From sequence record AP025670.1: a stretch of 64,000 nt of DNA; one strand, 5' to 3'. This document shows positions 3,420 to 60,715 of the stretch, in pieces; the first letter of the stretch is position 1; each line of letters begins with the position of its first letter. Made by a program: the position numbers and the translations under genes. Below the pieces are notes generated by a model. The model made no database searches and was not told the DNA's origin. It worked only from the letters and a program-made list of their open reading frames with translations. This stretch comes from a plasmid.

Positions 3420-4151
3420 CTATCCAGTTTTATATATAAGAGATAATGGTAGCGCCGAAAAACAGACGTTAAACTCCATAATTGTAATAGTGCTAAGAAC
3501 ATAATCAATCTCGTCCAGCAATTCAGCCAGTGTGTAACACCAAATATAGTCCTTTCTGTATGAAGTTATCCAGAATGATGACCACCATTCCTTAATCAGC
3601 AGGTAAATATGATTAGTTGTAAGTCCTTGTCCATGGGTATCGTTTCGCCACTCTTCTAACCAGCGTTTATGTTGACCTGGAACACAGAAAGACAAGTAAA
3701 GCCTGGATTTTGCAACGTTAATTTCAAGTTGATATTTCAATAGGTTAGATTCTTTCTTTGTCAGGCGATCCACCCTTTGATCATGAATCCGGTCACGGTG
3801 TTCGCGGCGCTGAAAAACCCTGTTCTGTAACTCCGGGAACATGGAAACTGCCAGAGACCAGGAAAGAGGGAGAATAAAACACTCTCCACGAGATTCAATC
3901 AGAATATCGATAGCACGCAGGTATTCAACTTTAGTTGCTTCGCCACGAACAAATGGATCGTAACTCGAATCGACCTTTCTCAAGTCATTCGAGCTAATTT
4001 GCGATTTACCTGTAAGTTCTTTAAAAAAGGCTTTGACGTAGGCCAGTTCTCCTGTTTTCCGTCCCAAAGCTCTGCGATTCTCCACAGAAGAAATAGAAGC
4101 CATTGCACATCGCTGGAAAGGGTTAATCGGGACAAGCGTGGAAGATTTCAT
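3420..4151 (-). CDS. PsiA-family protein (plasmid SOS inhibition A-like), paralog of the 16939..17661 gene
   Basis: 243 aa. Its N-terminus (STLVPINPFQRCAMASISSVE...YVKAFFKELTGKSQIS) aligns along its whole length with the 240-aa ORF at 16939..17661 and follows the PsiA N-terminal pattern ALIPL..QQ.AM.AVA...AFFR.FTGKA.IS. Confidence 0.5.
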   Translation of the reverse strand: MKSSTLVPINPFQRCAMASISSVENRRALGRKTGELAYVKAFFKELTGKSQISSNDLRKVDSSYDPFVRGEATKVEYLRAIDILIESRGECFILPLSWSLAVSMFPELQNRVFQRREHRDRIHDQRVDRLTKKESNLLKYQLEINVAKSRLYLSFCVPGQHKRWLEEWRNDTHGQGLTTNHIYLLIKEWWSSFWITSYRKDYIWCYTLAELLDEIDYVLSTITIMEFNVCFSALPLSLIYKTG

Positions 4152-13299: not shown

Positions 13300-14286
13300 T
13301 TAACTATCTTCTTCGATGACAGACCGGATAAACGCGTCAATTTTTTCATGGGCTTCTTTGCTGATGCGACTGAACTCATACGTAAACTTTCGCGCTCTGG
13401 TATCTGATTTTTTACGCGCGTATTTACGCTTATCGTCATACTCTTTTAGCGTTTCAAAAACAGGTTTTTCTATTACCGGCTTGTTTTCCAGCGTTGAGAA
13501 ATTGCTTTCAAAAAGCTTCATAACGCGTTCTTTGTAAAGGTCTGGTTGCAGGGACTCTTTTTCTAATTCTTTTGCTGCAAGAACGACATTCGCTACGAGG
13601 GTATCTATATCAATCTTTTTTTTCTCTGCCTGAATAGAAATATTCAGAAGAATTTTATAATCAGCGAATACCAGCAACGACTGAATAGGGAAAACAGAAA
13701 CCATCTTTTCGGGAACTGTTGCAGCCTGAATGGCACGGGAAACGGCAGCGGTAGACATGTTTTGCCGTTCCGCAATATCCTTCTGCGTTATACCCTGATC
13801 ACGCATAGCGATGAGAGTCATCCCTACTTCACGGATGTTATGCTCTTTTGCTGTCTGTATCTCAGCTGCGAGCTGGCGGGCTTCTTCGGCGGTCATCTCA
13901 CTTTTAGTGTACATAACCCGGAGGCCAACACCACAAAGTAATGCAGCTGCACGACGGCGTGACCCATCAAGGATTTCAATCCGCCCTTCCACCAGCCGAC
14001 CAATGGCAGGAAAGAACTGTTGGTTTTGCAGTGTACTGGTGATGTCTGCAAGGGATTCCTGTGTCAGAGCGTTTTGGTCACGCCCGTTAATTTTGGGGTC
14101 AACGTAGGTGCGAGTTTCAACCTGCTCGGCTGTGATAGTCTCAGTTTGAAACATAACCTTTCTGCCTGATTTCAGGACAAAGCGGAGACTCTCGCCAGAG
14201 GCAGCGGATAATGGAACGTTAATCCCGGAAAGAGGTGATTCGCTAAATGTTCTTCCGAGAACTTCTCTTGGTTTTTTCTGGGTCAT
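13300..14286 (-). CDS. parB: partition protein ParB (P1 type Ia centromere-binding protein)
   Basis: 328 aa. The block NGRDQNALTQESLADITSTLQNQQFFPAIGRLVEGRIEILDGSRRRAAAL matches P1 ParB (NGRDQASLTPKSLKSIRSTIKHQQFYPAIG...KIEILDGSRRRASAIL), and the C-terminal ...RKFTYEFSRISKE matches P1 ...RAFSYEFNRLSKE. Confidence 0.85.
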   Translation of the reverse strand: MTQKKPREVLGRTFSESPLSGINVPLSAASGESLRFVLKSGRKVMFQTETITAEQVETRTYVDPKINGRDQNALTQESLADITSTLQNQQFFPAIGRLVEGRIEILDGSRRRAAALLCGVGLRVMYTKSEMTAEEARQLAAEIQTAKEHNIREVGMTLIAMRDQGITQKDIAERQNMSTAAVSRAIQAATVPEKMVSVFPIQSLLVFADYKILLNISIQAEKKKIDIDTLVANVVLAAKELEKESLQPDLYKERVMKLFESNFSTLENKPVIEKPVFETLKEYDDKRKYARKKSDTRARKFTYEFSRISKEAHEKIDAFIRSVIEEDS

Positions 14287-15488
14287 GCGGCACCCCTCAA
14301 TAGCTCAATACGGTCAAACACGGCACGGGAAAAGTCCTCAGCTGCAACACGGGCGGCTCTTAGTGCATCCTGACTGCCTGCATACGTTTGAGGGTTCGCG
14401 CTGATTACGGTGTCAAATGATTCTCCGCAGCGTTCAAACCCCTCCAGACGAGGGAGTGTGGCATCGAGCATATCCGCGCCAAAAACATCTCTCGCAAAAC
14501 TATGTGTCTTTTTGTGGTCATCTTTATTTGAGACTTTCGACATATAGCCGACATTGGCGATAATTTTGCTTGGTAAACCGGAGTCCTCCAGCATCTGAAT
14601 CAGCTCAGGCAGTCGAGTGAGGTATTTCAGTGTTGAGTGGAAATCCACTTGCGGAGGCGGTACAGGGGTCATCAGCATGTGACTTGCCGCTAAAGTATTA
14701 ATCAGGAACGGATCTAAATGAGGGCCGGTATCCACAAAAATGAAATCGTAGTCGTCGCTGATTTTGTCGATGATATTCTCATTTAGAACGTTGTGCTCGT
14801 TCATGCCCGGAAGGTACTGGCTGCATAGAGATGACCAGCGAGAGGCGATAAACGCATCTTCTATTGATGCAGGGATGATATCAACGCCCGGCACGATAGA
14901 AGGCTTAACGAACTCATTCAGAATTTCTTCACGGGTCAGGTCTTTATTGAGCATGGCCTGAGCACTGGAATTATCGACAGTACCGATACTATGGTGATGG
15001 TTCAGGAACATGGTTGAGGACGATTGAGGGTCGAGGTCAATAACAAGGATGCGCAAGTTTTCATGCAGCAAGGTGGGATGGGTACGCATACCATGCGCCA
15101 TCGTCACGGTGGATACGGTTTTTGAAACCCCGCCTTTCAGGTTAACAACAAAAATAACGAACGCTTTTCCGCGCTTTTCCCGGTAGGTTTTTATACCCCG
15201 GTGCGCATAGATATCGCTGATGTTCTGAATGGTCATAGCATACTGAGTGGCAACGCCCCCATGACGTTTTCCGAACTGATAACCATTTGCCTCCATTTCC
15301 TCAACGGCATTATCTACAGCGCGTTTGGTCAGGTGCGGCATTTTTACGACGGCGGCTTTTGAATACGTTTTATAGAACTCCGTCTGGTCAAGCTCATCCC
15401 TTTTAGATTGGATCTGGTCGGTGAGCCAGTTAAGCATGATGCTGGCACGCTTACCCGTGTCCAACAATCTGTCAAAATTATCTGACAT
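14283..15488 (-). CDS. parA: partition ATPase ParA (type Ia, long N-terminal HTH extension)
   Basis: Walker A motif VVNLKGGVSKTVSTV and a length of about 400 aa, like P1 ParA or F SopA. It overlaps parB by 4 bp. The start is taken at MSDNFDRLL. Confidence 0.85.
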   Translation of the reverse strand: MSDNFDRLLDTGKRASIMLNWLTDQIQSKRDELDQTEFYKTYSKAAVVKMPHLTKRAVDNAVEEMEANGYQFGKRHGGVATQYAMTIQNISDIYAHRGIKTYREKRGKAFVIFVVNLKGGVSKTVSTVTMAHGMRTHPTLLHENLRILVIDLDPQSSSTMFLNHHHSIGTVDNSSAQAMLNKDLTREEILNEFVKPSIVPGVDIIPASIEDAFIASRWSSLCSQYLPGMNEHNVLNENIIDKISDDYDFIFVDTGPHLDPFLINTLAASHMLMTPVPPPQVDFHSTLKYLTRLPELIQMLEDSGLPSKIIANVGYMSKVSNKDDHKKTHSFARDVFGADMLDATLPRLEGFERCGESFDTVISANPQTYAGSQDALRAARVAAEDFSRAVFDRIELLRGAA

Positions 15489-15639
15489 ATGAACCCCTTT
15501 GATGTGTTGTTTTTTTAGGATTATATCAGAAATATCGACACGTTCTAGTTTTTGCAAAACTACAAACAACATCATACGCAGGAAAAACGGTCATTCAGAT
15601 GTTATACAACCATCATTAGAGGCTTATATAACATCTATT

Positions 15640-15883: not shown

Positions 15884-16207
15884 TCACGCCTGAAAGAATG
15901 CTTTCTTTAAGAACAGGTAAAAACGTCCACCAGCATCAAACATGCACAGATTTTCTTCAATGAATTTTTCAACTTTTTCCGTTGGTGCGGTCTGATAATG
16001 ACGGATCAGACGCAGCTTATTTGAGAGCGCACGTATGCGGTTTGGGTTATGGCTGATGCGAGAATGAATACTGCTGGTTGCAGCACAGGACACCGCGAGA
16101 GCCAATTCGGTCTTATAGGCAGCTGCTTCACAGGCGACAACCTGAGTACGGGCAGTAGCCTTTGCTGAGGGGCTGAGGTCTTGATAGTAATTAAGTGTAT
16201 CAATCAT
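15884..16207 (-). CDS. hypothetical protein
   Basis: 107-aa ORF upstream of the par promoter region. Confidence 0.35.
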   Translation of the reverse strand: MIDTLNYYQDLSPSAKATARTQVVACEAAAYKTELALAVSCAATSSIHSRISHNPNRIRALSNKLRLIRHYQTAPTEKVEKFIEENLCMFDAGGRFYLFLKKAFFQA

Positions 16208-16380
16208 TATTTATTTTTCCTTAACCAGAAACCATGTTGTGACAATCCACTCGGGTATTGCATTTTTTCTTGGATTGATTTTATCACTGGCAAAGAGATG
16301 CCGAAGCGAACAGGGGGATAGAGTGCTTAACAGAGATGGCTGTATGCGTTGTGATGTGACCGGGGATATGTTCAGGCACA

Positions 16381-16520
16381 AAAAAACCCGATACGGGATC
16401 GGGTTAATTTGTCTCTAAATGAGAGGGATAAAATTATTTCATCTGCAATGTACTGGTGAGGTAATTGCTGATGTTTACTACGTACTGTCAGTACCTGCCA
16501 ACTGATTAAAGATTACCCCC
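16381..16520 (-). ncRNA. candidate antisense sRNA (IstR/Sok-like) antitoxin
   Basis: On the minus strand, -35 TTGACA (plus-strand 16534-16539), 17 nt, then GTAATC. The transcript would carry the reverse complement of 16485-16504, which is complementary (1-2 mismatches) to 16695-16713 inside the divergent toxin mRNA leader. It ends at the hairpin plus T7 terminator at 16381-16410. Confidence 0.25.
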
Positions 16521-16548
16521 TTATCGTTATTTATGTCAACCGAAATAC

Positions 16549-16576
16549 TTCGAGGGGGGAGCGGGCAAGGTATAAT
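16549..16576 (+). promoter_or_regulatory. sigma70-like promoter for the toxin mRNA (TTCGAG, 16 nt, TATAAT)
   Basis: A perfect -10 TATAAT at 16571-16576. Confidence 0.4.
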
Positions 16577-16787
16577 ATTCTCAGTAGGCAGATTGTGTAT
16601 CTGCGGTATGTCTCAGGTTTGATGGGTTACGACGCAGGTTTCCATCCCGATCAGAAACAGGTGGTGCTGTCTGATTTGCTTCAACCTGAGAGTGCTGTCA
16701 GTTCCTGCCAACTACAGGTGCGCGGGGTGATGGGAAACCCAAAAGCAATCGCTCCGATGGCACACTCTCCATCAAAGGAGAGAACGA

Positions 16788-16883
16788 GTGGTAACTCTGG
16801 CAACTATCCTGCTGGTTTTGCAGATTGTGCATATCAGCTTGCAGATTATCGTTGTGATCAAGCAACTGACCCGTAGCCGGTAG
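16788..16883 (+). CDS. candidate type I toxin peptide, 31 aa (TisB/DinQ-like): VVTLATILLVLQIVHISLQIIVVIKQLTRSR
   Basis: GTG start 7 nt after a strong SD (AAGGAG at 16775-16780). The product is a single hydrophobic helix with a basic tail. A rho-independent terminator follows at 16899-16932. The locus is in the position that hok/flm occupies after psiA in F-like plasmids. Confidence 0.4.
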   Translation: MVTLATILLVLQIVHISLQIIVVIKQLTRSR

Positions 16884-16898
16884 TGATGGTGAAGGGAA

Positions 16899-16932
16899 CT
16901 TGAAACAAGGCAGAGGCTGACCCCCTCTGCCT
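16899..16932 (+). terminator. rho-independent terminator
   Basis: GGCAGAGGCTGACCCCCTCTGCC hairpin followed by TTTTTCG. Confidence 0.55.
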
Positions 16933-16938
16933 TTTTCG

Positions 16939-17661
16939 TTATGCCGGTAGTGCCAGAGGAAGGGCTGAGCGACACAGGCACAGGTCGCGCTCGCTAGATG
17001 TGCTTATCACGTAATCCAGTTCATTAAGCAGGTCATACAGGGTATCGCACCAGCGCCAGTCTGTAGGGGCAGAAGCAATCCAGAATGCACCCCACCAGCG
17101 AACCAGTATATTTCTAAGTTCCCAGTCACTGACACCAGCCATTTCTAATTCGTCTCGCCAGTGAGCCAGCCACGCCTTATGTTCCCCCGGCAGGCAAAAT
17201 TGCAAACCTACCCATACCGCACTTTGGGCATTTTCAGACGCAGACATTTCTTCGCGTTTTTGTTTTTGCTCGCGGCGGGCACTCCGGGCAGTGGCGATTT
17301 TCTCCCGATGACTTATTCGCTGATGCTCACCAGACTGGACAGCCGGGAACATAGCAGTGATAACCGCTTTTGACAGGGGGATGATCCACGTTTTCCCCCT
17401 GCTTTCTATTATCGTGTCGATAGCCCGTATGTAGTCGGTCTTTGTGGCTTCTCCCCGGTAGCTGGGGTTATATGCCGGGTCAACCTGTCGCACATGAGCG
17501 GACGTGATCCCCGCCTTCCCCGTGAACTCACGGAAAAAGGCTTTTGCATAGGGATATTCGCCTAGTGAACGCCCGGCTTCTGTCCGGGCTTCAATGTAGG
17601 CAATGGCAGACATGGCGCACTGCTGGAGTCGGTTTAGAGGTACAAGCGCGGTGGAAGCCAT
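16939..17661 (-). CDS. psiA: PsiA-family protein
   Basis: 240 aa with an N-terminal MASTALVPLNRLQQCAMSAIAYIE...YAKAFFREFTGKAGITS pattern, as in F PsiA (239 aa). Its start overlaps the stop of the upstream psiB-like gene (ATGA), as in psiB-psiA operons. Confidence 0.55.
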   Translation of the reverse strand: MASTALVPLNRLQQCAMSAIAYIEARTEAGRSLGEYPYAKAFFREFTGKAGITSAHVRQVDPAYNPSYRGEATKTDYIRAIDTIIESRGKTWIIPLSKAVITAMFPAVQSGEHQRISHREKIATARSARREQKQKREEMSASENAQSAVWVGLQFCLPGEHKAWLAHWRDELEMAGVSDWELRNILVRWWGAFWIASAPTDWRWCDTLYDLLNELDYVISTSSERDLCLCRSALPLALPA

Positions 17662-25051: not shown

Positions 25052-26119
25052 TCAAGCCGCTCCTGTTTCGGTGGCTGTGTTATCTTCGCCAGCATCAGCA
25101 TCAGCATCAGTATCTGTTTTCTGATTTGCTTCATACTGCTCAAGGATAGCCAGCAGCATTCGGGCAGCATCAGCCGGGATATTAATGCTCACATCATCCG
25201 GGTCTTTCGTGTCTTCCGTTTTCACACGTTCGATCTGCAAACGGATTTGATTGCTGGCTGGCAGCAGAGAGGTGAAGGTTTCACGGATAGCCTTTGGTTT
25301 CACGGTGACTTTTTTAGACTTCACAAAACGCGCCGTAACCTTGTCCTTACCTGCTTTCTTCGCTTCACCCAGAGAGGCCATCAGCTCTTCGTAAACGTTA
25401 CGCTCAGTGCCCTTGCACTCCACCAGCAGGTTGATAGCGACGTCAGCAGAAACTTTGTCCTCGCGAACCAACTCCTTAACGTTTTCCTCTGCCTCAACCA
25501 GAATTAGAGAGCGGCGAACGGTCTGGATGTTATTACCTGAGCCCGCCGCTATTTCTTCAATGGAGAGATTCCAGCCACGAAGACGACGGAAACCTTCTGC
25601 ACGTTCGATAGGTTTCAGAGCCAGTCCCTGAGCGCTCTTGAGCATCTCAAACACTTCACCGGCAGAGTTACCTGTGTATTCTTCAATCGGCAGTGAAGCA
25701 ATCTTCGCACCAGCTTGAATCGCAGCCATCAGGCCAGCAAAACGGTGGTGCCCGTCAATGATCTTGAGTCGCGTCACGCCATTAAGAATAACGGCTTTAA
25801 CCAAGATTGGTGGGATTCGATCCCCACGCATCCACATCCCTTTGAACATTTCCACCTGCTCAAGATTGAGGTTGCGCAGGTTAAAACCGACTTCAACATA
25901 CAGCCATGCAGGAGAAACGTTGTACCCGTTGTTACGTCCCACACTGGCCTCATCAAACAGAACGGTAGAATTTTCCTTTTTCACTTTCGCCAACAAATCG
26001 CTGATCTGACGAAGTGAAGTAGGTTTTTTTTCCATTTCCGCCATTTTTACTGCCAGCTCACCCAAAGCTGAGTTGTCCTGAGATTTAACAAAAATTTCCT
26101 GTACGTTGATGTCGCTCAT
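25052..26119 (-). CDS. ParB-like nuclease-domain protein (ParB/Srx N-terminal domain, not part of the parAB module)
   Basis: 355 aa with the ParB/Srx-fold signature LKIIDGHHRFAGLMAA. It is a paralog of the 43040..44086 gene. A promoter copy lies at 26196-26201. Confidence 0.6.
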   Translation of the reverse strand: MSDINVQEIFVKSQDNSALGELAVKMAEMEKKPTSLRQISDLLAKVKKENSTVLFDEASVGRNNGYNVSPAWLYVEVGFNLRNLNLEQVEMFKGMWMRGDRIPPILVKAVILNGVTRLKIIDGHHRFAGLMAAIQAGAKIASLPIEEYTGNSAGEVFEMLKSAQGLALKPIERAEGFRRLRGWNLSIEEIAAGSGNNIQTVRRSLILVEAEENVKELVREDKVSADVAINLLVECKGTERNVYEELMASLGEAKKAGKDKVTARFVKSKKVTVKPKAIRETFTSLLPASNQIRLQIERVKTEDTKDPDDVSINIPADAARMLLAILEQYEANQKTDTDADADAGEDNTATETGAA

Positions 26120-32042: not shown

Positions 32043-32180
32043 CGGCCATCTCTGTATTACATGGTGTGTAATACTATACCGCGATATTACACGATGTGCA
32101 ATACAGAGGTATATGGATAGTGGGGGGAGTTGATAAGAAACTTGAGGGGTCAGGGTAGATCGTAGCCTGCAAAAGAAAAA

Positions 32181-32212
32181 CCCGGCTTAGCCGGGCTCTA
32201 TGGTGATCTTAC
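32181..32212 (-). terminator. rho-independent terminator
   Basis: On the minus strand, an AGCCCGGCTAAGCCGGG hairpin plus TTTTTCTTTT. Confidence 0.5.
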
Positions 32213-32542
32213 TCAGCGGCACTTTCCACCTAAAATCTCAGTCCAAGATGCTCGACATTGCTGCCCGACATTACTGCCCGCAGTCATAATTGCTTCTTCC
32301 ACCTCTTGAGGGCAAAGATATTTCTCACCTTCTTCACAGGATGTCTGGTAGGTTCCCGGCAGGTAGAACGTCACTTCAACACCTTGCTTAATCTCTTGCC
32401 GAGCTCTCTCCACCAGCTCATTCACGCTATCACGGTCAAAACCCGGCATAGATGGCAACGGAACGTCGGAAGGTACTGCGTCAATCCATTCCAGTGCGTC
32501 GATCAAAGCGGCCAGTGTTTCCTGATGAGTGGTCATGTTCAT
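32213..32542 (-). CDS. hypothetical protein
   Basis: 109-aa ORF. Confidence 0.4.
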   Translation of the reverse strand: MNMTTHQETLAALIDALEWIDAVPSDVPLPSMPGFDRDSVNELVERARQEIKQGVEVTFYLPGTYQTSCEEGEKYLCPQEVEEAIMTAGSNVGQQCRASWTEILGGKCR

Positions 32543-60296: not shown

Positions 60297-60340
60297 TTAC
60301 TCAGATAAAAAAAGCCGTATTCTCATACGGCTTTTCTTTG
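60297..60340 (-). terminator. bidirectional hairpin terminator
   Basis: AAGCCGTATTCTCATACGGCTT flanked by A-run and T-run stretches. Confidence 0.5.
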
Positions 60341-60355
60341 AGTTGCTGCTTTCTA

Positions 60356-60715
60356 CTACAATATCGGTAATGCCGTTGTTACTGCAACAGATGAAGTCAT
60401 GATACCGTTGATGATATCCGGAGCATAGTACAGACCAATTGCCGCACCAACCGCCACTGCAAAGGTCATTAACGACTGACGAACAACCGCCGCAGCAATA
60501 CCAACAACTACAATCAGCCCCACTAACACACGACCTAATGACCCCTGCATATATGCAGTAATTTGCATCCATACTTCTTTGAAACCGGACTGTTCGGTTC
60601 CTTTGCCATAGGCAAACATAACTGCCAGTGCCGCTACACATAACACTGCGAAAACCACGAAAAGCACTTTTTTGGTATCAATTTTCGGCATGGCACATGT
60701 TTTTACTAATTGCAT
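60356..60715 (-). CDS. conjugative pilin-like protein (TraA/TrhA-like prepilin), tentative
   Basis: 119 aa. A long leader is followed by KEVWMQITAYMQGSLG and two hydrophobic helices. The start is at MQLVK after GAAGGG. Confidence 0.35.
   Translation of the reverse strand: MQLVKTCAMPKIDTKKVLFVVFAVLCVAALAVMFAYGKGTEQSGFKEVWMQITAYMQGSLGRVLVGLIVVVGIAAAVVRQSLMTFAVAVGAAIGLYYAPDIINGIMTSSVAVTTALPIL

What the first reader, a model, noticed from the sequence alone, without database searches (positions are those of the whole stretch)
16381..16935. Candidate tisB/istR-like type I toxin-antitoxin locus at the position hok/flm occupies next to psiA
A plus-strand promoter (TTCGAG, 16 nt, TATAAT at 16571-16576) is followed by an untranslated leader of about 190 nt and a strong SD (AAGGAG at 16775-16780). 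A GTG-initiated 31-codon ORF follows at 16788-16883, encoding VVTLATILLVLQIVHISLQIIVVIKQLTRSR. This is a single amphipathic/hydrophobic helix with a basic tail, like TisB or DinQ. A GC hairpin plus T-run terminator lies at 16899-16932. A 19-20 nt element (CTGTCAGTACCTGCCAACTG at 16485-16504) recurs inside the mRNA leader (CTGTCAGTTCCTGCCAACT at 16695-16713). A divergent minus-strand promoter (TTGACA, 17 nt, GTAATC) followed by a terminator at 16381-16410 would produce an sRNA of about 130 nt. That sRNA would be antisense to the leader copy, which matches the IstR-1/tisB standby-site arrangement. In F-like plasmids the hok-type flm locus sits exactly here, downstream of psiA.
Basis: partly seen in the sequence, partly recalled or inferred. 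Interest (0 to 1): 0.65.

Follow-up and report, generated by a model that had tools for sequence, protein, structure and literature searches.

The report
Unannotated type I toxin-antitoxin on Rts1
Next to psiA on the IncT plasmid Rts1 there is very probably a small plasmid-addiction module that current annotation misses: a 31-residue membrane peptide toxin whose mRNA is silenced by a divergently transcribed small RNA, a distant relative of the E. coli dinQ/agrB, dqlB/agrB and tisB/istR-1 systems.

Summary
No transcript or toxicity data exist.

The window is Rts1-like IncT DNA.

About 30 diverged copies (roughly 70-77% nucleotide identity) occur in plasmids of Pantoea, Erwinia, Mixta, Serratia and Klebsiella, and in a few chromosomes.
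- Sixteen distinct sequences keep a GTG-started ORF of exactly 31 codons. pN/pS is 0.55 in that frame, against 0.92 and 1.51 in the other two.
- The overlapping 93-aa ORF, which PGAP annotates as an 84-aa CDS, is broken in most copies and has no homologs outside IncT.
- Every intact copy has a 17-25 nt direct repeat. One copy is the 5' end of a minus-strand sRNA. The other lies in the mRNA leader, 89-100 nt before the start codon.
- Five different repeat sequences exist, and the two copies always change together.
- The sRNA and mRNA secondary structures show compensatory base changes.

A covariance model of the sRNA finds E. coli IstR-1, AgrB and AgrA, and pOXA-48 agrB, at their annotated positions. 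The leader hairpin motif (GGUGGUGC) is shared with dqlB, dinQ and tisB.

The peptide matches no TisB, DinQ or DqlB model. I class it as a new member family of a known kind.

The parts
16379..16504 (-). Predicted antitoxin sRNA gene, about 125 nt. It has a single-stranded 5' seed, a central hairpin, an IncT-specific extra hairpin and an intrinsic terminator.
   Evidence: The covariance model R1 scores 47.7 bits at 16380-16504 on the minus strand. The family alignment and consensus fold show 94.1% of cells paired against 25-48% when partners are slid. Eight pairs have compensatory changes, and 0 of 500 shuffles reach the covariation score. The single-sequence fold has z = -3.8.
16510..16539 (-). 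sRNA promoter: -35 TTGACA (16539-16534), 18-nt spacer, -10 TAATCT (16515-16510). The predicted start is about 16503.
   Evidence: A TTGACN -35 is present in 16 of 16 homologs examined, and a TAAnAT-like -10 in most of them. The seed begins 5-7 nt after the -10.
16482..16503 (-). sRNA seed (repeat copy 1). Its transcript is complementary to the leader site at 16692-16713.
   Evidence: Repeat D1 is 22 nt with 91% identity. The seed-target duplex is -39.6 kcal/mol, against -19.6 +/- 2.6 for shuffled seeds. The repeat co-varies in every intact homolog.
16412..16444 (-). Insertion of 31 nt in the sRNA body, unique to the IncT copy. It forms an extra small hairpin.
   Evidence: All other family members have a gap here in alignment A2. 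The MFE fold places a hairpin here.
16379..16405 (-). Intrinsic terminator of the sRNA.
   Evidence: The terminator scan finds an 8-bp stem followed by TTTTTTT. Helix 3 of A2 has compensatory changes.
16549..16576 (+). Toxin mRNA promoter: weak -35 TTCGAG, 16-nt spacer, consensus -10 TATAAT. The predicted start is about 16583.
   Evidence: A TATAAT or TATACT hexamer sits at the aligned position in 15 of 17 homologs.
16583..16937 (+). Predicted toxin mRNA, about 355 nt: a leader of about 205 nt, the ORF and a terminator.
   Evidence: MFE is -133.7 kcal/mol with z = -4.0. In the family consensus structure 95% of cells are paired against 37-46% when partners are slid. Twenty-eight pairs have compensatory changes against 11.2 +/- 2.1 in shuffles.
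16603..16607 (+). 5' element that pairs with the start of the sRNA target (16694-16698). It is a candidate lock on the full-length transcript.
   Evidence: Helix 1 of A3 is 97% paired, with one-sided changes only. The locking role is an inference by analogy with +1 dinQ and +1 tisB.
16649..16676 (+). Conserved leader hairpin with a GGUGGUG loop (AACAGGUGGUGCUGU).
   Evidence: Helix 2 of A3 has 6 of 10 pairs with compensatory change. The same motif occurs in the leaders of pOXA-48 dqlB, E. coli dinQ and tisB.
16692..16713 (+). sRNA target site (repeat copy 2), 75-96 nt upstream of the GTG. It is largely unpaired in the consensus structure.
   Evidence: Most differences between the two repeat copies are transitions that keep G-U pairing in the RNA duplex.
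16716..16762 (+). Long hairpin between the target site and the SD.
   Evidence: Helix 4 of A3 has 7 of 13 pairs with compensatory change.
16765..16782 (+). SD-sequestering hairpin: CUCUCC / AUCAAA / GGAGAG.
   Evidence: MFE fold. A CUCC...GGAG hairpin is kept in all homologs.
16788..16883 (+). Toxin ORF: GTG start, 31 codons, peptide (M)VTLATILLVLQIVHISLQIIVVIKQLTRSR.
   Evidence: Sixteen distinct homologous sequences all have a GTG start and exactly 31 codons. pN/pS is 0.55, against 0.92 and 1.51 in the other frames. AlphaFold2 predicts a single helix over residues 2-30 with pLDDT 93.8. Hydrophobicity is like TisB and DinQ.
16907..16937 (+). Intrinsic terminator of the toxin mRNA.
   Evidence: The terminator scan finds a 10-bp stem. 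Helix 13 of A3 has 5 compensatory pairs.
16595..16876 (+). The 93-aa ORF, annotated by PGAP as an 84-aa CDS at 16622-16876. It is not a real gene.
   Evidence: Its only homologs are near-identical IncT copies in a database of 5.8 billion proteins. The frame is interrupted in most homologs. pN/pS is 1.51 over the overlap. It has no Pfam or NCBIfam match.

Best explanation
This is a type I toxin-antitoxin module of the class with a divergent, non-overlapping sRNA.

The plus strand gives a highly structured mRNA of about 355 nt from a promoter with a weak -35 and a consensus -10. Its long leader ends in a hairpin that buries the Shine-Dalgarno sequence. The GTG start codon is paired with conserved downstream sequence. 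The mRNA encodes a 31-residue hydrophobic helix with a polar stripe and a basic tail, which I infer is an inner-membrane toxin.

The minus strand gives an sRNA of about 125 nt from a near-consensus promoter. Its unpaired 5' end of about 22 nt base-pairs with a site in the leader about 95 nt upstream of the start codon.

By analogy with IstR-1/tisB and AgrB/dinQ/dqlB, pairing blocks translation from a distance. It could do so by occupying a ribosome standby site, or by preventing the target region from pairing with the anti-SD so that the SD hairpin stays closed. It probably also triggers RNase III cleavage. The full-length mRNA is probably inert until its 5' end is processed.

On a low-copy conjugative plasmid the likely biological role is post-segregational killing. 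Cells that lose the plasmid lose the labile sRNA first, and the stable mRNA is then translated.

Shown by computation: the conserved ORF, the conserved sRNA gene and its structure, co-variation of seed and target, the conserved mRNA structure, and RNA-level similarity to known systems.

Inferred: transcription start sites, toxicity, membrane target, 5' processing, standby versus structural-switch mechanism, and the addiction role.
For: - **Origin and annotation.** The window matches Rts1 at 100% identity. Only an 84-aa hypothetical CDS is annotated here.
- **Homologs.** There are 15 diverged plasmid loci and 11 further intact loci from genome contigs, unannotated in all 11 plasmid records inspected.
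- **Coding frame.** The ORF is always GTG-started and 31 codons long, with an SD 8-10 nt upstream. The codon-position pattern and pN/pS favour this frame.
- **Rival ORF.** The 93-aa ORF is not conserved.
- **Seed and target.** They co-vary in five classes. Cognate duplexes are -34 to -49 kcal/mol. Non-cognate duplexes are -7 to -31 kcal/mol.
- **sRNA.** Structural covariation is significant against shuffles and slid partners. The promoters are conserved.
- **mRNA.** Structural covariation is significant, and the SD and start codon are sequestered.
- **Similarity to known antitoxin sRNAs.** Model R1 hits IstR-1 (25.9 bits, E 9e-5), AgrB (21.4 bits) and AgrA (19.0 bits) within 2-3 nt of their annotated 3' ends; the IstR-1 match starts 10 nt upstream of the annotated 5' end. 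It also hits the sRNA region upstream of dqlB on pOXA-48 (21.3 bits).
- **Similarity to known toxin mRNAs.** The leader hairpin and the 3' sequence are shared with dqlB, dinQ and tisB.
- **Experimental precedent.** DqlB-agrB of pOXA-48 has the same layout and a 31-aa toxin. It was shown to be toxic, to be repressed by base-pairing (compensatory mutants), and to act as an addiction module (PMC12365149).
- **Peptide.** It is predicted to be a single helix with hydrophobicity like TisB.
Against: - There are no experimental data for this locus: no transcript mapping, no toxicity test and no stability assay.
- Both transcription starts are predicted from hexamers. The toxin promoter's -35 is poor, and the simple scanner missed both promoters.
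- The IncT seed-target duplex carries one U-U mismatch and one G-U pair within 22 bp.
- The peptide has no significant similarity to any known toxin family.
- The alternative helix between the target and the anti-SD can form in 93% of cells but shows no covariation. A tisB-like GGUGG/CCACC pseudoknot is not supported in the IncT copy. The exact mode of repression is therefore open.
- E-values from model R1 are rough, and part of each score comes from the terminator.
Confidence: 0.88

Rival explanations
1. The region encodes the 84/93-aa protein that PGAP annotates (16595/16622-16876, plus strand). Under this reading the small ORF and the repeats are incidental.
For: RefSeq annotation of the IncT plasmids calls this CDS. 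One database cluster of identical or near-identical proteins exists.
Against: There is no homolog outside IncT among 5.8 billion proteins. The frame is broken by stop codons in most diverged loci. pN/pS is 1.51 over the overlap. There is no domain match. PGAP calls nothing at the homologous place in the 11 other plasmids inspected.
Confidence: 0.03
2. The locus is a hok/sok-type module, like flm of F. The long ORF would act as a mok-like leader frame, translationally coupled to the toxin, with a cis-overlapping antisense RNA.
For: The position next to psiA mirrors flm/hok in F. A longer ORF overlaps the toxin ORF in the IncT copy.
Against: There is no Hok Pfam or NCBIfam match. There is no Rfam hok or sok match. 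The overlapping frame is not conserved. The antisense gene does not overlap the mRNA and instead pairs through a repeated 22-nt element.
Confidence: 0.02
3. The conserved RNAs are real, but the module is not an addiction system. It would be a regulated stress or dormancy toxin, as proposed for chromosomal tisB and dinQ. Alternatively it would be a leading-region function expressed transiently on entry into a recipient.
For: The RNA scaffold is shared with the SOS-regulated tisB and dinQ. One chromosomal relative (L024) carries a near-consensus LexA box. The IncT copy lies beside psiA, and a ParB-HTH protein gene lies further along the same strand.
Against: The IncT and other plasmid copies have no LexA box. 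Most copies are on plasmids in varied contexts, typical of a selfish stabilising cassette. The closest validated plasmid relative is an addiction module.
Confidence: 0.1
4. The two repeat copies are DNA-level sites, such as protein-binding or recombination sites, rather than an RNA-RNA pairing pair.
For: They are direct repeats about 210 nt apart. A decayed locus (L013) looks like the product of recombination between them.
Against: Copy 1 sits exactly at the 5' end of a promoter-to-terminator unit with covarying RNA structure. Most differences between the copies keep G-U pairing in the RNA duplex. The repeat sequence is free to change as long as both copies change, which fits pairing better than a protein-recognition motif. 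Homologous systems act by RNA pairing.
Confidence: 0.02

Closest known systems
dqlB/agrB (DinQ-like B) of plasmid pOXA-48 and of other IncL/M, IncI1, IncB/O/K/Z and IncX plasmids (Kristiansen 2016, PMC5066626; PMC12365149, 2025)
   Same: - Both are plasmid-borne.
- The sRNA gene is divergent and does not overlap the mRNA.
- A repeated element forms the sRNA seed and a leader target about 91-97 nt before the start codon.
- The leader hairpin AACAGGUGGUGCUGU is identical in its core.
- Both have an SD hairpin.
- Both toxins are 31 codons long.
- The 3' sequence ACUGACCGGA...AAAGGCGGGG and the terminator are shared.
- Model R1 hits the sRNA region upstream of dqlB on pOXA-48.
   Different: - The peptide is unrelated by sequence. 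DqlB scores 73.5 bits on NF041473, while the family members score nothing. The hhalign probability is 1%.
- The start codon is GTG here and ATG in dqlB.
- The shared ACUGACC is read in a different frame: it contains the stop codon in dqlB and encodes Leu-Thr here.
- The pOXA-48 study reports 35 nt of complementarity; the ungapped repeat search here found 22 nt. Here it is about 22 nt.
- IncT was not among the plasmid groups reported to carry dqlB.
dinQ/agrB (with agrA) of E. coli K-12
   Same: - The architecture is the same.
- Both use a GTG start.
- The leader motif is ACGGGUGGUGCCGU.
- The target lies 107 nt before the start codon.
- AgrB and AgrA are found by model R1 at their annotated coordinates.
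- Rfam AgrB gives a weak match (26 bits, gathering score 40) to one family member's sRNA.
- The four-element alternative pairing proposed for dinQ can also be drawn here.
   Different: - dinQ is chromosomal and LexA-regulated, and the sRNA gene is duplicated.
- The toxin is 27 aa and unrelated by HMM.
- No blastn similarity was detected across 5,426 E. coli genomes.
tisB/istR-1 of E. coli
   Same: - The sRNA is divergent, and its 5' 22 nt pair with a site 123 nt before the start codon.
- The IstR-1 hairpin GCGGUUACCAGCCGC is identical to the central hairpin of some family sRNAs.
- IstR-1 is the best non-family hit of model R1, at 25.9 bits.
- The leader motif GAAACGGGUGGUGCCGUC matches.
- The RBS is sequestered.
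- The peptide has polar residues at positions 12, 19 and 26, as TisB has K12, Q19 and K26.
   Different: - tisB is chromosomal, SOS-controlled through a LexA box, and has an upstream untranslated tisA ORF.
- TisB is 29 aa with an ATG start.
- The TisB HMMs are not matched. Only the chromosomal variant L024 gives 11.6 bits, against a cut-off of 38.
- No Rfam family, and so no IstR model, matches the window or the other loci searched.
zorO/orzO of E. coli O157
   Same: - It belongs to the same organisational class: a long leader, and a divergent sRNA pairing about 100 nt upstream.
- Fozo's group noted similarity between the zor 5' UTR and the UTRs of plasmid dinQ-like genes (PMC11264685).
   Different: - No direct sequence comparison was made here.
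- The Rfam OrzO-P match to the window scores only 19.6 bits against a gathering score of 60, and it is carried by the terminator.
hok/sok (flm) of F
   Same: - It is also a type I addiction module.
- It occupies the same neighbourhood in F, just past psiB where psiA is expected.
   Different: - The toxin belongs to a different family.
- The antisense RNA is cis-encoded and overlapping.
- Translation is coupled to mok.
- No sequence or model match was found.

Membership tests
Type I toxin-antitoxin (generic) | A small hydrophobic peptide ORF under purifying selection | tested here: met
   The 31-codon ORF is kept in 16 distinct sequences. pN/pS is 0.55, against 0.92 and 1.51 in the other frames. 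A single helix is predicted.
Type I toxin-antitoxin (generic) | An antisense RNA gene whose product can base-pair with the toxin mRNA | tested here: met
   The promoter, seed, hairpin and terminator are conserved and the structure covaries. Seed and target co-vary in five classes.
Type I toxin-antitoxin (generic) | The peptide is toxic when overproduced, and the RNA neutralises it | not testable with these tools
   This needs an expression experiment. It has been shown for the related DqlB-agrB module (PMC12365149).
tisB/istR-1 | The toxin matches the TisB models (TIGR04459, NF011340, PF13939) | tested here: not met
   The window peptide gives no hit. One of 17 members (L024) scores 11.6 bits against a cut-off of 38. 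The TisB positive control scores 60-70 bits.
tisB/istR-1 | A divergent, non-overlapping sRNA whose 5' end pairs about 100 nt upstream of a sequestered RBS | tested here: met
   The target is at -96 to -75 in the window and starts at -89 to -100 in the homologs. The SD hairpin and the paired start codon are conserved.
tisB/istR-1 | The sRNA is homologous to IstR-1 | tested here: inconclusive
   Model R1 hits IstR-1 at 25.9 bits (E 9e-5), ending within 2 nt of its annotated 3' end and starting 10 nt upstream of its 5' end. The hairpin GCGGUUACCAGCCGC is identical in some members. No Rfam IstR match was obtained.
tisB/istR-1 | A LexA box at the toxin promoter (SOS control) | tested here: not met
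   There is no CTGT-N8-ACAG at the promoter of the IncT copy or of 15 other copies. It is present only in the chromosomal copy L024.
dinQ/agrB and dql (DinQ-like) | The toxin matches the DinQ or DqlB models (NF041472, NF041473) | tested here: not met
   None of the 17 members gives a hit. The DqlB control scores 73.5 bits. The hhalign probability is 1-8%.
dinQ/agrB and dql (DinQ-like) | 5' UTR sequence similarity to dinQ or dql, which is the criterion Kristiansen et al. used | tested here: met
   The hairpin core (A/C)(A/G)GGUGGUGC(U/C)GU lies upstream of the target in this family, in dqlB, in dinQ and in tisB. The 3' block is shared with dqlB. The similarity is limited to short blocks, and blastn finds nothing.
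dinQ/agrB and dql (DinQ-like) | An AgrB-like sRNA | tested here: inconclusive
   Model R1 hits AgrB (21.4 bits), AgrA (19.0 bits) and pOXA-48 agrB (21.3 bits) at the right places. Rfam AgrB reaches only 26 bits against a gathering score of 40 on one member, and does not match the window.
dinQ/agrB and dql (DinQ-like) | Mutually exclusive pairings among four leader elements (1:2, 2:3, 3:4) | tested here: inconclusive
   Pairing 1:2 (helix 1) and pairing 3:4 (the SD hairpin) are conserved. Pairing 2:3 can form in 93% of cells but shows no covariation.
hok/sok | A Hok-family toxin, a conserved overlapping mok frame, and a cis-overlapping Sok RNA | tested here: not met
   There is no Hok HMM hit and no Rfam hit. 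The overlapping frame is not conserved. The sRNA gene does not overlap the mRNA.
zorO/orzO | An OrzO-like sRNA or a ZorO toxin | tested here: not met
   Rfam OrzO-P scores 19.6 bits against a gathering score of 60, on the terminator only. The ZorO peptide and its leader were not compared directly.

The most novel reading that the evidence does not exclude
tisB/istR-1, dinQ/agrB, dqlB/agrB and this family may all descend from one ancestral RNA chassis. The chassis would comprise an sRNA with a free 5' seed and an ACCA-loop hairpin, a leader hairpin with a GGUGGUG loop, a target about 100 nt upstream of a locked RBS, and a conserved 3' end. On that chassis the toxin ORF has been replaced or has drifted beyond recognition. 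The seed-target pair is swapped freely, which creates orthogonal specificity classes so that several such modules can coexist in one cell. The literature treats these systems as non-homologous but similarly organised, so this would revise that view. It would also make this family the link between the plasmid-borne and the chromosomal SOS-controlled members.
Probability: 0.45. Interest if true: 0.6.

Novelty: new member of a known kind. Interest (0 to 1): 0.45.

Why it matters
**Annotation.** Rts1 is the IncT prototype, and its relatives now carry carbapenemase genes in Providencia and Proteus. They appear to hold a stability module that annotation pipelines miss or mis-call as an 84-aa protein. 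The same cassette is unannotated in dozens of plasmids of Pantoea, Erwinia, Serratia and Klebsiella.

**Plasmid curing.** Knowing about the module matters for curing strategies, because the sRNA could be supplied in trans to rescue cured cells.

**Incompatibility and coexistence.** Five seed classes exist, which bears on how related modules can share one cell.

**Evolution of type I systems.** The family also gives comparative evidence that the regulatory RNAs of tisB, dinQ, dqlB and this module share conserved parts although their toxins do not. This bears on the open question of how type I systems originate and diversify.

Tried and rejected
- **Rfam.** The window and nine homologous loci gave nothing above gathering scores. 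The weak Betaproteobacteria_toxic_sRNA, Trp_leader and OrzO-P matches are driven by the terminator.
- **Protein family libraries.** Pfam, NCBIfam and PADLOC gave no family for the peptides.
- **Protein database searches.** The search for homologous proteins refuses queries under 40 aa. The search of 1.84 billion representative proteins with the 31-aa peptide found nothing.
- **DinQ on plasmids.** tblastn of DinQ against the plasmid collection found no match, probably because of low-complexity masking. I took dqlB from the pOXA-48 record instead.
- **Phages.** No blastn match was found. The single viral-contig pattern match lies inside a long ORF and is chance. Most of the 35 pattern matches in genome contigs were also chance, and 13 were real.
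- **Pseudoknot.** A tisB-like pairing between loop GUGG and downstream CCAC can be drawn in most members. It is invariant, so it is untestable by covariation, and it is broken in the IncT copy (CAACC). I did not claim it.
- **SOS control.** A LexA box is absent in the IncT copy. Its only CTG-N10-CAG is at +30, is a poor match and is not conserved.
- **Frameshift origin.** The idea that the peptide is a frameshifted DqlB was rejected, because the other frames are full of stop codons.
- **Neighbouring genes.** A Pfam scan of ten ORFs at 19-31 kb gave only a ParB-HTH hit, so the leading-region context rests on psiA and that hit.
- **Full-length duplex.** The sRNA-mRNA duplexfold result (-76 kcal/mol) ignores intramolecular structure and was disregarded.
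Full report
**1. Where we are**

The 761 bases around the finding are 100% identical to Proteus vulgaris plasmid Rts1 (IncT) and to a dozen Providencia IncT plasmids. The region lies between a 107-aa hypothetical gene (15884-16207, minus strand) and psiA (16939-17661, minus strand; Pfam PsiA, E 6.8e-19). RefSeq annotates only an 84-aa hypothetical protein there, at window 16622-16876 on the plus strand.

**2. The observation**

Reading the sequence and running the mechanical scans confirms every element at the stated coordinates.
- Plus-strand promoter: TTCGAG, 16 nt, TATAAT (16549-16576).
- AAGGAG at 16775-16780.
- A GTG-started ORF of 31 codons at 16788-16883.
- A plus-strand terminator at 16907-16933.
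- A minus-strand terminator at 16405-16385.
- TTGACA on the minus strand at 16539-16534.
- A 22-nt direct repeat at 16482-16503 and 16692-16713, with 20 of 22 bases identical.

The sRNA -10 is better read as TAATCT after an 18-nt spacer. The leader is about 205 nt.

**3. Relatives elsewhere**

blastn (word size 11) and tblastn with the peptide found 15 further plasmids at 69-77% nucleotide identity. They come from Serratia, Mixta, Pantoea, Erwinia and Klebsiella. No feature is annotated under any of those matches. The surrounding genes all differ: parM, rep, umuC, ABC transporters and integrases. The unit therefore behaves as an autonomous cassette.

A pattern scan of one genome per species added 13 real loci. 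Nearly all are Erwiniaceae, some on very large contigs that may be chromosomal. Thirty-one of 5,426 complete E. coli genomes carry a truncated copy in a chromosomal island. No phage carries it.

**4. Which ORF is real**

Sixteen distinct sequences, from 22 intact loci, start with GTG. Each has an SD 8-10 nt upstream and is exactly 31 codons long.
- Variable sites per codon position are 22, 12 and 22. This is the pattern expected for a hydrophobic peptide with Ile/Leu/Val exchanges.
- Pooled pN/pS is 0.55 in this frame.
- It is 0.92 and 1.51 in the other two frames. The 1.51 value belongs to the 93-aa ORF.

The long ORF is interrupted in most loci. It has no homolog beyond near-identical IncT copies among 5.8 billion proteins.

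The peptide is predicted to be one helix over residues 2-30 (pLDDT 93.8). Its hydrophobicity is like that of TisB and DinQ. Polar residues fall at positions 12, 19 and 26, the same positions as K12, Q19 and K26 of TisB.

**5. The antisense partner**

In every intact locus the best direct repeat joins two places. One is 180-236 nt upstream of the other. The downstream copy starts 89-100 nt before the start codon. The repeat sequence falls into five classes.

| Class | Repeat sequence | Where found |
|---|---|---|
| A | CTGTCAGTWCCTGCCAACT | IncT |
| B | GTGCTGCTTGTACCTGCTAACT | most Erwiniaceae plasmids, Serratia |
| C | GGGTRCTGCATGTATCGACTCG | Klebsiella, P. ananatis and others |
| D | GTGCYACAGRCAATTTCAGCAAGA | Erwinia sp. 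E602 |
| E | GCTCAGCATTCCTCACA | [Erwinia] mediterraneensis |

The two copies always change together. Within class B, a T-to-C variant is present in both copies of L046 and of L026. Most differences between copies are transitions that leave a G-U pair in the RNA duplex.

Cognate seed-target duplexes are -34 to -49 kcal/mol. Non-cognate ones are -7 to -31 kcal/mol. The IncT seed gives -39.6 kcal/mol against -19.6 +/- 2.6 for shuffled seeds.

The upstream copy sits 5-7 nt downstream of a minus-strand promoter. Its -35 TTGACN is present in 16 of 16 loci, and its -10 is TAAnAT-like in most of them. It is followed by a hairpin and a terminator.

On an alignment of 17 distinct sRNAs, 94.1% of cells pair, against 25-48% when the partners are slid. 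Eight of 16 pairs show compensatory changes. No shuffle out of 500 reaches the covariation score. This is strong comparative evidence for a functional sRNA of about 95 nt. The IncT version is about 125 nt because of a 31-nt insertion. Its free 5' end pairs with the leader.

**6. The mRNA**

A TATAAT or TATACT hexamer lies at the aligned position in 15 of 17 loci. The IncT mRNA folds with z = -4.0.

On 14 diverged mRNAs the consensus structure has 73 pairs and 95% of cells paired, against 37-46% when partners are slid. Twenty-eight pairs have compensatory changes, against 11.2 +/- 2.1 in shuffles (0 of 500).

The main features in window coordinates are:
- a 5' element (16603-16607) paired with the start of the target;
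- a hairpin with an invariant GGUGGUG loop (16649-16676);
- the largely unpaired target (16692-16713);
- a long hairpin (16716-16762);
- the SD hairpin (16765-16782);
- the start codon paired with invariant sequence inside and after the ORF;
- the terminator.

**7. How it most likely works**

Shown in silico: a conserved toxin ORF whose SD and start codon are locked in structure, and an abundant-looking sRNA that pairs about 95 nt upstream.

Inferred from the characterised relatives: the primary transcript is inert. 5' processing frees the target region. Ribosomes then reach the RBS in one of two ways. The first is from a standby site, which is the tisB model (PMC7708055). The second is that the freed region pairs with the anti-SD, which is the dinQ model (PMC5066626).

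The sRNA would compete for that region and probably recruit RNase III. The pairing between target and anti-SD can form in 93% of cells but is invariant, so covariation cannot test it. I therefore leave the choice between standby and switch open.

The biological role is most likely post-segregational killing. This was shown for DqlB-agrB on pOXA-48 through toxicity, rescue, compensatory seed mutations and rescue of CRISPR-cured cells (PMC12365149).

**8. Comparison with known systems**

*Peptide level.* There is no membership in any known family. No Pfam, NCBIfam or PADLOC family is matched. The positive controls behave as expected: DqlB scores 73.5 bits and TisB 60-70 bits. Only the chromosomal variant L024 gives a sub-threshold TisB hit of 11.6 bits. 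hhalign probabilities are 1-8%.

*RNA level.* There is clear similarity.
- A covariance model built only from this family's sRNAs finds E. coli IstR-1 at 25.9 bits, E 9e-5; AgrB at 21.4 bits; and AgrA at 19.0 bits. Each match ends within 2-3 nt of the annotated 3' end, and the IstR-1 match starts 10 nt upstream of the annotated 5' end.
- It also finds the sRNA region upstream of dqlB on pOXA-48 at 21.3 bits.
- The IstR-1 hairpin GCGGUUACCAGCCGC is identical to that of some members.
- The leader hairpin core AACAGGUGGUGCUGU is identical in dqlB. It reads ACGGGUGGUGCCGU in dinQ and tisB. In each case it lies upstream of the sRNA target.
- dqlB is also 31 codons long. It shares the 3' block ACUGACCGGA...AAAGGCGGGG, although that block is read in another frame.

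By contrast, blastn sees no similarity to any locus that is universal in E. coli. Rfam models stay below threshold.

The literature calls tisB, zor and shoB "non-homologous but similarly organised". It notes only recently that plasmid dinQ-like UTRs resemble the zor UTR. IncT is not among the plasmid groups reported to carry dqlB.

I could not see the dqlA sequences of Kristiansen et al. I therefore cannot exclude that this family overlaps with their dqlA group. Their stated criterion of DinQ signature residues is not met here.

**9. The psiA position**

In F, a Hok-family toxin gene lies about 1 kb downstream of psiB, in the position where psiA is expected. The PLSDB table for that record does not list psiA. 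In IncT the toxin gene is convergent with psiA. In all other plasmids the cassette sits elsewhere. The analogy is therefore one of position, not of descent.

**10. Verdict**

This is a real feature that is unannotated, or mis-annotated as an 84-aa CDS. It is a new toxin family on a known regulatory chassis, so I class it as a new member of a known kind.

Confidence that it is a type I toxin-antitoxin locus is about 0.88. Confidence in the addiction role and in the exact repression mechanism is lower.

Interest is moderate at 0.45. The kind is well known, and a plasmid relative was validated in 2025. The family does add a clean case of seed-target co-variation. It also adds evidence for shared ancestry of regulatory RNAs across toxin families that are currently treated as unrelated.

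Noticed in passing
L013:2335-2660 (Erwinia sp. HDF1-3R plasmid): This is a decayed copy. The sRNA body (model R1, 53 bits) runs straight into the leader downstream of the repeat. Both promoters and the 5' leader are missing, as expected from recombination between the two direct repeats. The toxin ORF carries an in-frame stop codon.
   Followed up: partly
L049:2001-2278 and L050:2001-2249 (E. coli chromosomes; 31 of 5,426 genomes): This is a 5'-truncated homolog encoding a 28-aa variant, VITLTTVLLVMQIMLAGLVAIKQLTGRP. It lies in an island beside a GTPase-family gene and Ag43. Neither a cognate sRNA gene nor a homologous promoter was found. It may be a remnant or an orphan toxin gene.
   Followed up: partly
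L024:~3640-4040 ([Erwinia] mediterraneensis, 3.87-Mb contig): This is a chromosomal variant with an ATG start and a 29-aa peptide, MELIKLVLDIIRIILQIIVALMQLTGHAC. It has its own seed class. A near-consensus LexA box, CTGTATGCTTATACAG, lies immediately after the -10. It is the only member with a weak TisB HMM hit. It could be a bridge between the plasmid cassettes and the SOS-controlled tisB and dinQ.
   Followed up: partly
L019 compared with L008: The toxin peptides differ at one residue of 31, but the seed-target classes differ (C in L019, B in L008). This suggests modular exchange of the specificity region by recombination.
   Followed up: no
window 16622-16876 (+): PGAP annotates an 84-aa hypothetical protein (WP_172691630.1) across the leader and toxin ORF in IncT plasmids. 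The evidence here indicates that this is a mis-call.
   Followed up: yes
window 16412-16444 (-): The IncT sRNA carries a 31-nt insertion that forms an extra small hairpin, absent from all other family members. Its significance is unknown.
   Followed up: no
L051:1083-1116, L052 (reverse complement) about 1070-1105, L054:4535-4570: The leaders of tisB, dinQ and dqlB share a hairpin core, (A/C)(A/G)GGUGGUGC(C/U)GU, just upstream of their sRNA targets. In tisB it lies at the 5' end of the active +42 mRNA, where the published standby pseudoknot maps. The papers read here treat tisB and dinQ as similar but distinct systems.
   Followed up: partly
window 16541-16558 and 16921-16938: This is an 18-nt imperfect inverted repeat (72% complementary) joining the promoter region to the mRNA terminator. 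The first arm lies upstream of the predicted transcription start, so it is probably chance.
   Followed up: no
window 13300-15575 (-) and 25052-26119 (-): A ParA/ParB-type partition pair lies just upstream of the locus. A second ParB-HTH protein gene lies among a long run of minus-strand hypothetical genes beyond psiA. This resembles the ParB-like gene in the leading region of F.
   Followed up: no
window 60306-60365 (-) and 32173-32280 (-): Model R1 gives weak hits here (16.5 bits, E about 0.05). The first is only a terminator hairpin with an A/T-rich flank; the second was not inspected. Neither was treated as a second sRNA copy.
   Followed up: partly
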